A stretch of DNA of 64,000 bases from Escherichia coli (GTDB lineage: Bacteria; Pseudomonadota; Gammaproteobacteria; Enterobacterales; Enterobacteriaceae): assembly GCF_030013595.1 (NCBI RefSeq), contig NZ_CP122768.1. One strand, written 5' to 3'. The notes beneath the pieces were generated by a model. The model did no database searches and was not told where the DNA came from. It worked only from the letters and a program-made list of their open reading frames with translations. Each line of letters opens with the position of its first letter. Position 1 is the stretch's first letter. Positions 15,750 to 20,284 of the stretch are shown one piece after another. Made by a program: the position numbers and the translations under genes.

Positions 15750-16100
15750 CCCCCAAACTGTCAGTCCATGCATCTTTCGTCCCTGGTGTGTTACATGAAC
15801 ACACGTCACTTTTATCTCCTGGCAGAATAAACAAATTTTACAGGTTTTTTCTTCCCCGGGATTCAGCCTCACTCCCTGCTTGCTCAGCAACCATCTGCTG
15901 TTGTTGCCGGGTATGACTGTCTGCATGGCATGCATTTGTTGTATCTGTGCTGACTGAATACGATAAAAATTTCTGGTTAATGACGATCGATATCATCTAT
16001 CGATTCGATCGATTTTATTCAATTGAGACTATCGCATGGCGGGTTTTAAAATGCACTGAGTACTGCTTGCAGCAACGGAGCAATAACGGAGATAATTGAA

Positions 16101-16841
16101 ATGAAAAAGGTTTTTGCTGTTTCAGTGGTGGCCGCAGCCTGTGTATTTGCAGCAAATGCAGGTGCTGAGGAAGGTAAAAGCGGTTTTTATCTGACCGGTA
16201 AAGCCGGTGCCTCTGTGGTGTCACTTTCAGACCAGCGTTTCCTGTCAGGAGATGAGGAAGAAACGTCAAAGTATAAAGGCGGCGATGACCATGATACGGT
16301 ATTCAGTGGCGGTATTGCGGCCGGTTATGATTTTTATCCGCAGTTCAGTATTCCGGTTCGTACAGAACTGGAGTTTTACGCGCGTGGAAAAGCTGATTCG
16401 AAGTATAACGTAGATAAAGACAGCTGGTCAGGTGGTTACTGGCGTGATGACCTGAAGAATGAAGTGTCAGTCAACACTCTGATGCTGAATACGTACTATG
16501 ACTTCCGGAACGACAGTGCATTCACACCATGGGTATCCGCAGGGATTGGTTACGCCAGAATTCATCAGAAAACAACTGGTATCAGTACTTGGGATTACGG
16601 GTACGGGTACAGTGGGCGTGAGTCGTTGTCACACTCAGACTCTGCTGACAACTTTGCATGGAGCCTTGGGGCTGGTGTCCGTTATGACGTAACCCCGGAT
16701 ATCGCTCTTGACCTCAGCTATCGCTATATTGATGCAGGTGACAGCAGTGTGAGTTACAAGGATGAGTGGGGCGATAAATATAAATCAGAGGTTGATGTTA
16801 AAAGTCATGACATCATGCTTGGTGTGACTTATAACTTCTGA
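16101..16841 (+). CDS. outer-membrane beta-barrel protein (OmpA-like/porin-family barrel), secreted
   Basis: Signal peptide MKKVFAVSVVAAACVFAANAGA, alternating amphipathic strands, C-terminal ...GVTYNF aromatic terminus; GGAGA Shine-Dalgarno. Confidence 0.6.
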   Translation: MKKVFAVSVVAAACVFAANAGAEEGKSGFYLTGKAGASVVSLSDQRFLSGDEEETSKYKGGDDHDTVFSGGIAAGYDFYPQFSIPVRTELEFYARGKADSKYNVDKDSWSGGYWRDDLKNEVSVNTLMLNTYYDFRNDSAFTPWVSAGIGYARIHQKTTGISTWDYGYGYSGRESLSHSDSADNFAWSLGAGVRYDVTPDIALDLSYRYIDAGDSSVSYKDEWGDKYKSEVDVKSHDIMLGVTYNF

Positions 16842-16897
16842 CGAAACTGCTCCTGAAAGATAATAATTACTTATCTTCTGTAATTAAAAGGAAACAC

Positions 16898-16939
16898 CCT
16901 GCAGTAATTATACTGCAGGGTTGTCTGTTATCTGTTTTA
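16898..16939 (+). terminator. rho-independent terminator after the OMP gene
   Basis: 10-bp perfect stem ccctgcagta / tactgcaggg followed by a T-rich tract. Confidence 0.6.
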
Positions 16940-17000
16940 CAGATAATTTCTGATTTTTATTATCCTGTTCTCTTCATAATAATATTGTCGATATACTCCG

Positions 17001-18500
17001 ATGAATATCAGAAAACTGTTTTGTCCGGGCGACACACCCCGGATTTTATTGTTTTTATTCTTTTTTGTTATTTCTGTGATAATCACAATTGCATGCGGAT
17101 ACACTGAGAAGAATGCCACAGGAAATGTGCTGCTTCTGTTTCTCCTTCTTCTCCTTGCACACAGAAATACCCTCACATCCATTACAACGCTGTTATTTCT
17201 GTTCTGTTGTGCACTGTATGCGCCTGCGGGTATGACGTACGGTAAAATCAACAACAGTTTTATTGTCGCGTTGCTGCAGACCACGGCTGATGAGGCTGCA
17301 GAGTTTACCGGGATGATTCCTGTTTATCATTTTCTGGTCAGTGCCGCGATTCTGGTATTCATGGTGATTTTCTGGCGGACACACCACCGCGGTCACCGTA
17401 ACTGGCTGGCACTGCTGCTGTTCGTATTATGCTCTGTAAACAGCTGGCCGTTGCGGATGGTTAAAGGAATTGTTGTGGGAACAACTGACACATTGCGTGA
17501 AATGCAGCGTTATAAACAACTGAGTCAGCACGGGGCTGACAACTGGAAAATCCTGCCGGGAACACCGTTGTATGACTCGATTGTTATCGTTACTGGTGAG
17601 AGTGTGCGCAGGGATTATATGTCGGTATATGGCTATCCCGTGCCAACCACACCATGGCTGAATACGGCTCCCGGTTTATTTATTGACGGCTATACATCGG
17701 CAGCAGCCAGTACCGTACCTTCCCTGAGCCGGACACTGATTTATGACTATGAGCAGAACCCTGACTCCGGCAACAACGTGGTGGCGCTGGCAGCAAAAGC
17801 AGGATACAGCACATGGTGGATATCCAATCAGGGAAAACTGGGAGAGCATGACACACGCATCTCTGTTATTGCTTCTGATGCGGAGCATACCGTTTTCCTC
17901 AAGAAAGGCAGCTTCGCTTCCCGTAAAACGGATGACATGTTGTTGTTACAGGAAACAGAACGTGCGCTGGCGGATAAATCCTCGCCGAAGGTGATTTTCC
18001 TGCACATGATTGGCTCTCATCCGAATCCGTGTGACCGACTTAACTCCTGGCCGAATTATTACCTGGAGCAGTATCCCCGAAAGATTGCCTGTTACCTCGC
18101 CAGCATCAGTAAACTGGATAACTTTCTCGGTCAGCTTGATGGTATCCTTCGCCGGCATTCCCGTCACTTTGCAATGCTTTACTTTTCTGACCATGGGCTG
18201 TCGGTCAGCGACAGTGCTAATCCTGTTCATCATGATGGTCATGTGCAGGGGGGCTACAGCGTTCCCCTGATTATTACCGCCAGTGACATCACGTCTCATC
18301 AGTCCGTCAGCAGGAAAATCAGTGCCCGTAATTTCGCAGGCATTTTTCAGTGGCTGACCGGTATTCGTACCGAAAATATACCGCCATTCAATCCGCTGAC
18401 AGACGAAGATAATGAACCCGTTATGGTTTTTAACGGAGAGAAAAATGTGCCGGCAGACAGTCTGAAACCGCAGCCACTTATTCTTCCGGACCACAGGTAA
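17001..18500 (+). CDS. phosphoethanolamine transferase-family membrane protein (sulfatase-domain, EptA/YhbX-like)
   Basis: N-terminal multi-TM region followed by sulfatase-like motifs GESVRRDYMSVYGY and HMIGSHPNP. Confidence 0.65.
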   Translation: MNIRKLFCPGDTPRILLFLFFFVISVIITIACGYTEKNATGNVLLLFLLLLLAHRNTLTSITTLLFLFCCALYAPAGMTYGKINNSFIVALLQTTADEAAEFTGMIPVYHFLVSAAILVFMVIFWRTHHRGHRNWLALLLFVLCSVNSWPLRMVKGIVVGTTDTLREMQRYKQLSQHGADNWKILPGTPLYDSIVIVTGESVRRDYMSVYGYPVPTTPWLNTAPGLFIDGYTSAAASTVPSLSRTLIYDYEQNPDSGNNVVALAAKAGYSTWWISNQGKLGEHDTRISVIASDAEHTVFLKKGSFASRKTDDMLLLQETERALADKSSPKVIFLHMIGSHPNPCDRLNSWPNYYLEQYPRKIACYLASISKLDNFLGQLDGILRRHSRHFAMLYFSDHGLSVSDSANPVHHDGHVQGGYSVPLIITASDITSHQSVSRKISARNFAGIFQWLTGIRTENIPPFNPLTDEDNEPVMVFNGEKNVPADSLKPQPLILPDHR

Positions 18501-18620
18501 TCATATATGGCAAACTGTAATACAGTCTCTTGTACTGAAAAGGATTCTGTATAGAATAGAACCTGTATTCATATCAGCACAAGGGACCACCAAATCCCGG
18601 CAGCATTCCTTACGTCAGTT

Positions 18621-18773: not shown

Positions 18774-18805
18774 TAACAAAAAATAATCCCCGGGTGGTTC
18801 CCGGG
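18774..18805 (-). terminator. probable intrinsic terminator downstream of the integrase gene
   Basis: cccggg-tggtt-cccggg hairpin followed, on the minus strand, by a T-rich tract. Confidence 0.45.
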
Positions 18806-18821
18806 CATTTTCCCGGGAGGA

Positions 18822-20087
18822 TTATTGTTTTAATGGATTATTAATCTTTGCATATTCAAATGGACTGATAAATCTTTCTCTGTTTGCATCCAGAAAATCG
18901 GCCCACCACTGTAGCATAAGTCGACGTTCTTCCAGATGTTCGGCTTTATGGATATACGCAGCACGTACACCATTACGCTCCTGATGGCTCATCTGGCGTT
19001 CCACAGCATCGCGGGACCACAAACCTGATTCTATTAATGCACTACATGCCATCGCCCGGAATCCATGACCACAGACATCCTGGGTTGTGTCATACCCCAT
19101 AACCCTCAGGGCTTTATTTACGGTGTTTTCACTGATTGGTTTACGTGGGTCATGTGCTCCCGTAAAGATCAGACCATTTTCACCTGCCCATGTCTGAAGT
19201 TCTGCCAGTATGGCTACAGCCTGTTGGCTGAGTGGCACAAGATGTGGTGTTCGCATCTTGGAGCCCCGGTATGAAAATTTTACGCCTGGCAGAGGTTCGC
19301 GTTCGGCTGGAATAGTCCACATGGCATTGTCAATATCAATTTCAGACCAGCGGGCATATCTGAGTTCACTGGAACGAATAAAAACCAGTAAATTCAGCAT
19401 AACTGCCAGTCGGGTGACAGGCTGGCCTTTATAACCGTCAATACGCGACAAAAGTTCAGGCAGGCGAGAAAGATCAAGAGCGGGGCGATGCTGGCGTTTT
19501 ACAGTGGTCAATGCACCAGCCATATCCAGAGCCGGGTTATATCTGATGATGCCAGACTGTACGGCATAACGCATTACAGCAGATATTCTTTGCTGCAGAC
19601 GACTGGCGATTTCATAAATTTGTTTAGCTTCTGCAGCACGAACAGGGATAAGCAGGTCCGGGGTACTGAGTGTTGTGATATCCCGGTTGCCGATAAAGGG
19701 GAAAACGTGTGTCTCGAGGCTTTTGAGTACTTTATCGCTGTGTGATTGTGCCCATTGTTTATTACTGGCATGCCAGCGTCGTGCAATATGTTCAAAAGAG
19801 AGTTGTAAATCAGGGACTACTTTTTTAGCTCTTTTCTGTTCGCAAGGGTCAACCCCCTCCGAAATCAGTTTTCGGGCCTCATCCCGTTTTGTACGAGCTT
19901 CGGAGAGAGAAACTTCCGGATACACACCAAGTGCCAGGGTTTTCTCCTTACCCAGAATACGATAACGGAGACGCCAGTAACGGGAACCATTAGGATGAAC
20001 CAGCAGGAACATGCCGGCCCCGTCAGTGAGTTTATAAGCCTTGTCAGTGGGCTTTGCAGCCCGGATTTTTGCGTCAGTCAGTGCCAT
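18822..20087 (-). CDS. P4-type tyrosine integrase
   Basis: 421 aa; N-terminus MALTDAKIRAAKPTDKAYKLTDGAGMFLLVHPNGSRYWRLRYR typical of P4-like integrases; gene starts ~200 bp from the tRNA-Phe 3' end. Confidence 0.9.
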   Translation of the reverse strand: MALTDAKIRAAKPTDKAYKLTDGAGMFLLVHPNGSRYWRLRYRILGKEKTLALGVYPEVSLSEARTKRDEARKLISEGVDPCEQKRAKKVVPDLQLSFEHIARRWHASNKQWAQSHSDKVLKSLETHVFPFIGNRDITTLSTPDLLIPVRAAEAKQIYEIASRLQQRISAVMRYAVQSGIIRYNPALDMAGALTTVKRQHRPALDLSRLPELLSRIDGYKGQPVTRLAVMLNLLVFIRSSELRYARWSEIDIDNAMWTIPAEREPLPGVKFSYRGSKMRTPHLVPLSQQAVAILAELQTWAGENGLIFTGAHDPRKPISENTVNKALRVMGYDTTQDVCGHGFRAMACSALIESGLWSRDAVERQMSHQERNGVRAAYIHKAEHLEERRLMLQWWADFLDANRERFISPFEYAKINNPLKQ

Positions 20088-20240
20088 AGTTCAGCCTTCT
20101 GAATGCGTTAAAGAGGGTACAAATTCTGTCGAACTGGGGTATACCCGCAATTATACCCACACAATGGGGTTGATGTGGGGGGAATCTGGTTGAGTTCGGT
20201 AGAATTGATTTGGAGGCAGAACGCTTAAATTGTGGCGTTC

Positions 20241-20274
20241 TGAAACGAAAAACGGACCTCCGTGGAGGTCCGTT
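20241..20274 (-). terminator. intrinsic terminator downstream of tRNA-Phe
   Basis: perfect 9-bp stem acggacctc / gaggtccgt followed, on the minus strand, by TTTTCGTTTC. Confidence 0.6.
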
Positions 20275-20284
20275 GATATGAATT

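What the first reader, a model, noticed from the sequence alone, without database searches (positions are those of the whole stretch)
15750..20284. pheV island cargo next to the integrase: envelope-modifying enzyme plus outer-membrane barrel
Directly inside the integrase are a phosphoethanolamine-transferase-family gene and a secreted beta-barrel outer-membrane protein gene, each with its own terminator. Surface-remodelling cargo of this type can alter phage receptors, antimicrobial-peptide resistance or serum resistance. Both genes appear intact.
Basis: partly seen in the sequence, partly recalled or inferred. Interest (0 to 1): 0.35.

Follow-up and report, generated by a model that had tools for sequence, protein, structure and literature searches.

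The report
Known pheV island adhesin and transferase
Next to the pheV integrase sit two intact, already annotated E. coli island genes, an Hra-family adhesin and a phosphoethanolamine transferase of the yjgX type whose target is unknown; the pair is common and ordinary.

Summary
Window 15750-20284 contains, inward from tRNA-Phe (pheV):
- a P4-type integrase (18822-20087, -);
- an intact 499-aa phosphoethanolamine (pEtN) transferase (17001-18500, +);
- an intact 246-aa outer-membrane barrel (16101-16841, +).

The interpretation needs sharpening.

The barrel is a host-adhesion factor of the Hra family (Hra1/Hek/Hes/Tia), not a generic remodelling protein. It is 64% identical to Tia and 86% to the hes-type allele of the LAA island. 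The model shows eight strands.

The transferase is the intact ortholog of the K-12 pseudogene yjgX. It keeps the catalytic Thr and metal ligands and has an EptA/MCR-like fold. Its closest characterised relative is OpgE, which modifies periplasmic glucans (30% identity over the full length). It matches EptA, EptB, EptC and MCR only in the catalytic domain, far below the curated cut-offs. A polymyxin-resistance role is therefore not supported, and the acceptor is unknown.

The integrase-transferase-adhesin block is the conserved head of many pheV, pheU and leuX islands. The adjacent pair is in 1087 of 5426 complete E. coli genomes and has been noted in the literature. Distant transferase homologs have no barrel neighbour.

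Verdict: already known, low interest. The transferase's substrate is the only open question.

The parts
20285..20360 (-). tRNA-Phe (GAA), the pheV integration site. It lies just outside the finding and anchors the island.
   Evidence: ARAGORN. It is flanked by yqgA, speC and nupG, as at pheV in strain B1, CFT073 and NCTC9699.
20251..20274 (-). Terminator-like hairpin immediately downstream of the tRNA 3' end.
   Evidence: Scan: 10-bp stem with 6 GC pairs, tail TTTCGTTTCA.
18822..20087 (-). P4-type tyrosine integrase, 421 aa.
   Evidence: Pfam Arm-DNA-bind_3 (1e-29), Phage_int_M (1e-27) and Phage_integrase (5e-17). RefSeq annotates the same gene as a tyrosine-type recombinase/integrase.
18789..18805 (-). 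Terminator-like GC hairpin with a U-rich tail after the integrase stop codon.
   Evidence: -15.8 kcal/mol, z = -1.8; weak.
18621..18648 (+). Intrinsic terminator of the transferase gene.
   Evidence: 10-bp stem followed by UUUUUU. Energy -21.9 kcal/mol, z = -4.3.
17001..18500 (+). Intact YjgX-type phosphoethanolamine transferase, 499 aa. It has about five membrane helices (residues 15-154) and a periplasmic sulfatase-fold domain (194-446).
   Evidence: Pfam and NCBIfam. It is the ortholog of the K-12 pseudogene yjgX. OpgE is the nearest characterised paralog. E200, T238, H335, H340, D397 and H398 are invariant in 37 homologs. The AF2 model has pLDDT 89 and matches EcEptC, MCR-1 and NmEptA.
16936..16963 (+). 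Promoter-like site (TTTACA-16-TATTAT) 37 nt upstream of the transferase start codon.
   Evidence: Consensus scan, 10 of 12 positions. The number of promoter-like sites in the region is not above chance (7 found, 7.7 expected), so this is weak evidence.
16896..16921 (.). Perfect 11-bp inverted repeat between the two cargo genes. It may act as a partial or bidirectional terminator.
   Evidence: -19.7 kcal/mol, z = -4.9. The U tract on the + strand is poor.
16101..16841 (+). Hra-family (Hra1/Hek-type) outer-membrane adhesin, 246 aa. It has a signal peptide, an eight-stranded beta-barrel and a C-terminal ...TYNF.
   Evidence: Pfam OMP_b-brl, OmpA_membrane and Opacity. Cluster names are Hra1, Hek and Tia. 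Identity is 96% to the pap-linked pheU allele, 86% to the LAA allele and 64% to Tia. The AF2 model has 8 strands and pLDDT 85.5. Foldseek matches OmpA-TM, NspA, OmpW, Ail and OmpX.
16023..16052 (+). Promoter-like site (TTGAGA-18-TAAAAT) upstream of the adhesin gene. A GGAG Shine-Dalgarno sequence lies about 10 nt before the ATG.
   Evidence: This is a consensus match only.
14693..15749 (-). IS903B (transposase at 14749-15717). It forms the left boundary of the conserved three-gene block.
   Evidence: NCBIfam IS5 family transposase, 358 bits. RefSeq annotation is IS903B. Junctions were mapped by blastn against strain B1.

Best explanation
This is the conserved tRNA-proximal head of a family of E. 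coli genomic islands. A P4-type integrase inserts these islands at pheV, pheU or leuX. The head is integrase, then a yjgX-type pEtN transferase, then an Hra-family adhesin. Variable cargo lies beyond it; here that cargo is an IS903B-truncated BREX system.

The adhesin (identity shown; mechanism inferred from the family). It is exported through Sec and folds as an eight-stranded outer-membrane barrel. Its four long surface loops mediate hemagglutination, autoaggregation and adherence to or invasion of epithelial cells, as demonstrated for Hra1, Hek, Hes and Tia.

The transferase (architecture and catalytic residues shown; chemistry inferred). It is an inner-membrane enzyme with a periplasmic, metal-dependent domain. 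That domain would take phosphoethanolamine from phosphatidylethanolamine onto Thr238 and pass it to a periplasm-exposed acceptor. Its nearest characterised relative is OpgE and it lies far from EptA, EptB, EptC and MCR. The acceptor is therefore more likely a glycan (periplasmic glucan or another envelope saccharide) than lipid A. This last step is inference only.

The two genes are most likely independent cargo that travel together because they lie in the rarely recombined head of the island.
For: - Gene identities.
- Orthology to K-12 yjgX, with the same tRNA / integrase / convergent-transferase geometry at leuX.
- The OpgE-related clade: (30% identity over 513 columns, 239 bits, against 45-103 bits for the other paralogs) and the NJ tree.
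- Catalytic set invariant across 37 homologs.
- The same head module with different cargo:
  - BREX in strains B1 and NCTC9699;
  - Dnd in TK3896, with a Tia-type barrel;
  - the pap operon at pheU;
  - LAA with ato genes;
  - CFT073, with the transferase truncated by IS66.
- Frequency in 5426 complete genomes: adjacent pair in 1087, barrel gene alone (at least 80% covered) in 1097, transferase in 1450.
- Literature:
  - Hra-family phenotypes and hes at pheV (PMC5539235);
  - every pheU, pheV and selC insertion analysed in four LEE-negative STEC strains carries a YjgX- or YhbX-type transferase (PMC6174562);
  - 'putative opgE' next to integrases and pap in bloodstream isolates (PMC8946752);
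  - OpgE function (PMC3818809).
- Hes and Hra1 give their phenotypes when expressed alone from a plasmid in the laboratory strain HB101.
Against: - No experiment on any YjgX-type enzyme was found. At 30% identity to OpgE, the acceptor cannot be transferred by homology.
- The barrel gene is almost never found without the transferase (1087 of 1097 genomes).
- The tandem persists at 57-58% (transferase) and 50-51% (barrel) identity in Salmonella and in gut metagenome contigs. This could reflect functional coupling rather than hitch-hiking.
- Expression was not tested. The promoter matches are at chance level.
Confidence: 0.7

Rival explanations
1. The transferase is an LPS-modifying enzyme acting on lipid A or the inner core. 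It would lower surface charge and confer resistance to polymyxin or cationic peptides.
For: It belongs to the same superfamily and has the same fold as EptA and MCR-1, with full-length Foldseek matches to 9nww and 5fgn (TM about 0.6). The catalytic residues are conserved. Some sources auto-name homologs 'lipid A phosphoethanolamine transferase'.
Against: - Identity to EptA, EptB and EptC is 22-25% and confined to the catalytic domain.
- NCBIfam EptA, EptB, CptA and MCR scores are 20-105 bits, against cut-offs of 404-1250.
- In the tree it groups with OpgE, away from EptA/EptB and EptC.
- Overexpressed OpgE itself did not raise the colistin MIC (PMC8004244).
Confidence: 0.13
2. The adhesin and the transferase form a functional pair. 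The transferase would decorate the adhesin itself, or the glycans around it, with pEtN to tune adhesion, aggregation or antigenicity.
For: - The two genes are adjacent in 1087 of the 1097 genomes that carry the barrel gene.
- The tandem is kept in Salmonella and in metagenome contigs at about 50-58% identity.
- Barrel alleles are swapped (Hra1/Hek-type, Hes-type, Tia-type) while the neighbouring transferase stays 92-98% identical.
- The tia island of H10407 carries a non-orthologous, YhbX-type transferase (65% identical to YhbX) in the equivalent slot next to the TPR gene.
- pEtN transferases that modify proteins exist, namely PptA and C. jejuni EptC (PMC10525099).
Against: - Hes and Hra1 work alone in the laboratory strain HB101. 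K-12 MG1655 carries only the yjgX pseudogene; HB101's own yjgX status was not checked.
- The two genes decay independently. In CFT073 the transferase is truncated and no barrel gene is annotated in the 18 kb examined. In one LAA strain the barrel has an internal stop and the transferase is intact. K-12 has only the pseudogene.
- All 14 distant YjgX-clade loci from other genera lack a barrel neighbour. So do the plasmid homologs (52% and 47% identical) and the chromosomal ones in Erwinia, Enterobacter, Pantoea and Aquitalea.
Confidence: 0.12
3. The genes are silent or decaying passengers with no current function in this strain.
For: Homologs are often truncated: K-12 yjgX, CFT073, and many partial cluster members. 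Neighbouring cargo is being eroded by insertion sequences. The promoter matches are at chance level.
Against: Both ORFs are full length, with all catalytic or structural hallmarks. They are identical or nearly so to copies in hundreds of genomes. The adhesin has a good Shine-Dalgarno sequence and signal peptide.
Confidence: 0.05

Closest known systems
Hra family of E. coli outer-membrane adhesins (Hra1, Hek, Hes, Hra2, Tia)
   Same: The size and eight-stranded barrel are the same. Identity is 64% to Tia of H10407, 86% to the LAA (hes-type) allele and 96% to the pap-linked pheU allele. The position next to a P4-type integrase at a tRNA-Phe gene is also the same.
   Different: It is not the Hes allele: the hes-specific primers do not match. 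It is a minority allele, with only 91 of 1538 matching records at 95% nucleotide identity or more. I could not fetch the type sequences, so the choice between Hra1 and Hek is unresolved.
E. coli K-12 yjgX (pseudogene b4575, next to intB at leuX)
   Same: It is the ortholog: 91.6% nucleotide identity over 79% of the gene. The layout of tRNA, integrase and convergent transferase is the same.
   Different: The window copy is intact (499 aa). K-12's copy lacks the 5' end and has many frameshifts and stop codons.
OpgE (YbiP), the pEtN transferase for osmoregulated periplasmic glucans
   Same: It is the nearest characterised relative: 30% identity over the full length, including the membrane domain, and a sister clade in the tree. 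The architecture is the same, with N-terminal membrane helices and a periplasmic sulfatase-fold domain.
   Different: It is a paralog, not an ortholog. K-12 MG1655 has a core opgE as well as yjgX, and opgE orthologs occur across Enterobacteriaceae. OpgE is chromosomal and convergent with ompX in Enterobacteriaceae, whereas this gene is island-borne. Its acceptor is untested.
EptA/MCR-1 (lipid A), EptB (Kdo) and EptC/CptA (heptose I) pEtN transferases
   Same: The fold is shared, as are the catalytic Thr and the Glu, Asp-His and His metal ligands.
   Different: Identity is only 22-25%, in the catalytic domain alone. All curated model cut-offs are missed by a wide margin.
LAA pathogenicity island, module I (pheV-int-sisA-transferase-hes) of LEE-negative STEC
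   Same: The integration site, integrase, transferase (97.6% aa identity) and gene order are the same.
   Different: The sisA/shiA-like TPR gene between integrase and transferase is absent here: 338 bp, against about 1.7 kb in the pheU copy compared (L014). The adhesin allele is different. The distal cargo is a BREX remnant rather than ato, iha and ag43.

Membership tests
Phosphoethanolamine transferase (alkaline-phosphatase superfamily, EptA/MCR architecture) | N-terminal multi-helix inner-membrane domain | tested here: met
   Five hydrophobic segments lie within residues 15-154. The AF2 model has helices 12-177. Full-length structural matches to MCR-1 (9nww) and NmEptA (5fgn).
Phosphoethanolamine transferase (alkaline-phosphatase superfamily, EptA/MCR architecture) | Periplasmic sulfatase-fold catalytic domain | tested here: met
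   Pfam Sulfatase 2.7e-36, residues 194-446. Foldseek best match is EcEptC 6a82, E = 2e-18, TMt 0.72.
Phosphoethanolamine transferase (alkaline-phosphatase superfamily, EptA/MCR architecture) | Catalytic Thr nucleophile plus Glu, Asp-His and His metal ligands | tested here: met
   E200, T238, H335, H340, D397 and H398 are invariant and H411 nearly so in 37 homologs. In the HMMER alignment they line up with the matching conserved motifs of MCR-1 (GETARAD, GTSTA, LHQMGNH, SDHGES). Assigning these motifs to E246, T285, H395 and D465-H466 of MCR-1 rests on my own knowledge.
Phosphoethanolamine transferase (alkaline-phosphatase superfamily, EptA/MCR architecture) | Demonstrated transfer of pEtN from phosphatidylethanolamine | not testable with these tools
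   This needs biochemistry or mass spectrometry.
Lipid A / LPS-core pEtN transferases (EptA, MCR, EptB, CptA) | Score above the curated NCBIfam cut-off for one of these families | tested here: not met
   The best score is CptA at 105.5 bits against a cut-off of 404. EptA scores 37-57 against 561-660, and the MCR models 20-30 against 1075-1250.
OpgE (glucan pEtN transferase) | Orthology to E. coli OpgE: high identity and ompX-opgE synteny | tested here: not met
   Identity is 30%. True OpgE orthologs are 72-96% identical, and 52 of 66 have ompX within 600 bp. This gene lies in a separate clade.
YjgX orthologous group | High identity to K-12 yjgX and the same position, convergent with a P4-type integrase at a tRNA gene | tested here: met
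   91.6% nucleotide identity over 79% of the gene. The pseudogene translation is near-identical over residues 107-175. The layout at leuX matches.
Hra family adhesins (Hra1/Hek/Hes/Hra2/Tia) | Sequence identity in the family's range (65-90% between named members) | tested here: met
   64% to Tia of H10407, 86% to the LAA allele and 96% to the pheU allele. Sources name the identical sequence 'Heat resistant agglutinin 1' and cluster mates 'Hek' and 'Tia'. The published identity matrix is in PMC5539235.
Hra family adhesins (Hra1/Hek/Hes/Hra2/Tia) | Signal peptide, eight-stranded outer-membrane barrel and C-terminal aromatic residue | tested here: met
   The N-terminus is MKKVFAVSVVAAACVFAANAGA and the C-terminus ...TYNF. 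The AF2 model has 8 strands and pLDDT 85.5. It matches OmpA-TM, NspA, OmpW, Ail and OmpX.
Hra family adhesins (Hra1/Hek/Hes/Hra2/Tia) | Hemagglutination, autoaggregation and adhesion activity | not testable with these tools
   Shown experimentally for Hes and Hra1, but not for this allele.
P4-type integrase genomic island at a tRNA gene | Tyrosine recombinase with an Arm-DNA-bind_3 domain, adjacent to the 3' end of the tRNA | tested here: met
   The integrase start codon is 197 bp from the tRNA 3' end.
P4-type integrase genomic island at a tRNA gene | Direct repeat of the tRNA 3' end at the far boundary | tested here: inconclusive
   The window holds no second copy of the 23-nt tRNA 3' end, allowing up to 3 mismatches. 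The island runs off the window start.

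The most novel reading that the evidence does not exclude
The hra-yjgX tandem is a functional unit. The island-borne pEtN transferase would modify the adhesin itself, or a surface glycan next to it. This would tune adhesion, autoaggregation or antigenicity, and would explain why the barrel gene is almost never found without the transferase. As a by-product it would define a new acceptor class for the OpgE-related clade.
Probability: 0.1. Interest if true: 0.55.

Novelty: already known. Interest (0 to 1): 0.17.

Why it matters
The practical value is small.

- This strain carries an intact hra-type adhesin, which VirulenceFinder reports as 'hra'. It is a recognised accessory colonisation factor.
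- The neighbouring transferase should not be read as a colistin- or peptide-resistance determinant.
- One real gap remains. About a quarter of complete E. coli genomes carry a near-full-length yjgX-type transferase, and its acceptor has never been determined.
- That gene has already confounded a published result. A GWAS signal for urinary portal of entry mapped to it through linkage with pap.
- It may also confound another. The Δhes-sisA virulence mutant removed it as well, and its contribution was not tested separately.

Tried and rejected
1. Assigning the transferase to a named subfamily by curated profiles. No NCBIfam model reached its cut-off, so I fell back on pairwise comparison and a tree.

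2. Treating a 6.7-kb ColE1-type plasmid homolog (29% identity) as the Shigella O-antigen transferase Opt/Lpt-O. A search found the gene only on E. coli, Klebsiella and uncultured-bacterium plasmids, and none from Shigella. I dropped that link.

3. Naming the adhesin allele. The Hra1, Hek and Hes type sequences could not be fetched and the published alignment is an image. Only the hes-specific primers could be tested, and they do not match.

4. Finding the far island boundary. No second repeat of the tRNA 3' end lies in the window.

5. Deep conservation of a barrel-plus-transferase pair. Fourteen distant YjgX-clade loci have no barrel neighbour. The ompX-opgE adjacency is synteny within Enterobacteriaceae only, and is absent in Edwardsiella and Tolumonas. 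I rejected it as evidence for an ancient functional link.

6. Literature on YjgX function. There are 13 papers. Most of them, judging by titles and abstracts, use the K-12 pseudogene as an integration site for metabolic engineering, and none appeared to report a functional study of the enzyme.

7. One context look-up (P0041) returned nothing.

Full report
**What is there.** The window is E. coli chromosome. ARAGORN finds a single tRNA, tRNA-Phe(GAA), at 20285-20360 on the minus strand. To its right lie yqgA, speC and nupG, which is the pheV locus.

Moving inward from the tRNA 3' end there are three genes:
- a 421-aa tyrosine integrase (18822-20087, -), with Arm-DNA-bind_3, Phage_int_M and Phage_integrase domains;
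- a 499-aa ORF (17001-18500, +), with Pfam Sulfatase at E = 2.7e-36 and a weak EptA_B_N match;
- a 246-aa ORF (16101-16841, +), matching OMP_b-brl, OmpA_membrane and Opacity.

Both cargo ORFs are full length. The barrel protein is identical to RefSeq WP_000755102.1. The transferase differs at one residue from WP_016231426.1.

A canonical terminator follows the transferase (18621-18648, hairpin plus U6, -21.9 kcal/mol). The hairpin after the barrel gene (16896-16921, -19.7 kcal/mol) has a poor U tract. So 'each with its own terminator' is only half right. The observation as a whole is confirmed.

**The barrel protein is an Hra-family adhesin.**
- Sources name the identical sequence 'Heat resistant agglutinin 1', and members of its 90% cluster 'adhesin/virulence factor Hek' and 'Tia invasion determinant'.
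- It is 64% identical to Tia of ETEC H10407, 86% to the allele in an LAA-type STEC island and 96% to the allele in a pap-linked pheU island. These values fit the published identity matrix of the Hra family (PMC5539235).
- The hes-specific PCR primers do not match. It is therefore an Hra1/Hek-type allele rather than Hes. I could not obtain the type sequences to decide between those two names.
- An AlphaFold model (pLDDT 85.5) shows a signal-peptide helix and eight long strands. It matches OmpA-TM, NspA, OmpW, Ail and OmpX.
- The family's demonstrated activities are hemagglutination, autoaggregation, biofilm formation, adhesion and invasion.

**The transferase is an intact YjgX, related to OpgE.**
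- No curated NCBIfam model is passed. The best is CptA at 105 bits against a cut-off of 404. EptA, EptB and MCR score much lower.
- The gene is 91.6% identical in nucleotides to the K-12 pseudogene yjgX. That pseudogene sits in the same convergent position next to the P4-type integrase intB at leuX.
- Against the five K-12 paralogs, OpgE is clearly closest: 30% identity over 513 columns, membrane domain included, 239 bits. YhbX scores 103, EptC 90, EptB 55 and EptA 45.
- A neighbour-joining tree places the YjgX clade beside OpgE and away from the other paralogs.
- E200, T238, H335, H340, D397 and H398 are invariant in 37 homologs. They align with the matching conserved motifs of MCR-1, which I take, from my own knowledge, to hold its metal ligands and Thr nucleophile.
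- The AlphaFold model (pLDDT 89) has a helical membrane domain. Its catalytic domain matches EcEptC, and the full length matches MCR-1 and NmEptA.

It is therefore a bona fide pEtN transferase in architecture. It is not a member of the lipid A, Kdo or heptose subfamilies. OpgE adds pEtN to osmoregulated periplasmic glucans (PMC3818809). Overexpressed OpgE did not raise the colistin MIC (PMC8004244). The acceptor of YjgX-type enzymes has not been tested anywhere I could find.

**Context and frequency.** The integrase-transferase-adhesin block is the conserved head of a family of islands, and the cargo beyond it varies:
- BREX in strains B1 and NCTC9699;
- a Dnd system with a Tia-type barrel in TK3896;
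- the pap operon at pheU;
- LAA with ato genes;
- CFT073, where IS66 has truncated the transferase.

In the LAA, pheU and CFT073 versions a sisA/shiA-like gene (annotated as a TPR protein in the LAA copy) lies between integrase and transferase. It is absent here (338 bp, against about 1.7 kb in the pheU copy).

Among 5426 complete E. coli genomes:
- 2973 have some yjgX-like sequence, and 1450 have at least 80% of it;
- 1097 have at least 80% of the barrel gene;
- 1087 have the adjacent pair.

The module has been described before:
- in LAA (PMC5539235);
- as a 'putative opgE' next to integrases and pap in a bloodstream-isolate GWAS (PMC8946752).

**Are the two genes a functional pair?**

In favour:
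- The barrel gene almost never occurs without the transferase.
- The tandem persists in Salmonella and in metagenome contigs at 57-58% (transferase) and 50-51% (barrel) identity.
- Barrel alleles are exchanged while the transferase stays conserved.
- The tia island of H10407 carries a non-orthologous YhbX-type transferase near tia.

Against:
- Hes and Hra1 give their phenotypes alone in the laboratory strain HB101. K-12 MG1655 carries only the yjgX pseudogene.
- The two genes decay independently.
- Fourteen distant YjgX-clade loci in other genera have no barrel neighbour. Neither do the plasmid-borne or other chromosomal homologs.
- The ompX-opgE adjacency seen in K-12 is synteny confined to Enterobacteriaceae.

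I rate functional coupling at about 10-12%.

**Verdict.** The finding is real, but ordinary and already annotated. It is a common island head carrying a known adhesin and an uncharacterised OpgE-related pEtN transferase. The suggested phenotypes (polymyxin or peptide resistance, phage receptor change, serum resistance) are not supported by the subfamily assignment.

Noticed in passing
window 12191-15749: IS903B abuts a 5'-truncated pglX. Compared with strain B1, 11.2 kb are missing next to the IS: the first ~380 codons of pglX, then brxC, brxB, brxA, a hypothetical gene, a BCCT transporter gene, a DUF2254 remnant and IS1. The island's type 1 BREX system (brxL at 7322-9406 and pglZ at 9417-12020 remain) is therefore very likely dead in this strain.
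   Followed up: partly
window 12938-14128: The middle of the remaining pglX fragment has no megablast match to pglX of strain B1, although the flanks are 98% and 91% identical. The GC content drops to 0.34. This may be a swapped target-recognition region of the BREX methyltransferase.
   Followed up: no
window 18501-18821: The sisA/shiA-like gene that separates integrase and transferase in LAA, in pheU islands and in CFT073 is absent. Only 338 bp of unrelated sequence, including a terminator, lie here.
   Followed up: partly
L016 4451-6598 (K-12 ompX-opgE) and L035-L108: OpgE, the closest characterised relative of the transferase, is also next to a small eight-stranded barrel gene, ompX, in convergent orientation. 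Of 66 OpgE orthologs, 52 have ompX within 600 bp, but Edwardsiella and Tolumonas do not. This is probably family-level synteny. The Hra-family HMM hits OmpX only weakly (E about 1e-5 to 1e-3).
   Followed up: yes
L003 6001-7536; L004; L026: A homolog of the transferase (about 52% identical, 1955 cluster members) sits in plasmid-like contexts (DotM, Hok and exclusion genes nearby). A DUF2569 gene precedes it and there is no barrel gene.
   Followed up: partly
L013 6448-13647 (ETEC H10407 tia island): tia is followed by leoCBA and then a 557-aa transferase of the YhbX type (65% identical to YhbX, 27% to the window enzyme), next to the TPR gene. A non-orthologous pEtN transferase thus occupies the equivalent slot.
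   Followed up: partly
L028 (strain TK3896, pheV): The same integrase-transferase head carries a Tia-type barrel allele and a Dnd phosphorothioation system as distal cargo. The megablast match covers only the 3' ~190 nt of the barrel gene, which suggests recombination inside the gene.
   Followed up: partly
PMC13340028 (literature): The published Δhes-sisA mutant of an LAA strain replaced a 5.5-kb region that also contains this phosphoethanolamine transferase. The virulence and biofilm phenotypes ascribed to hes and sisA therefore cannot exclude a contribution from the transferase.
   Followed up: no
window 1-7100: The left part of the island holds small unannotated ORFs. These include two Cys-rich, zinc-ribbon-like proteins (6246-6635 and 6632-7057) just upstream of brxL. 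I did not examine them.
   Followed up: no
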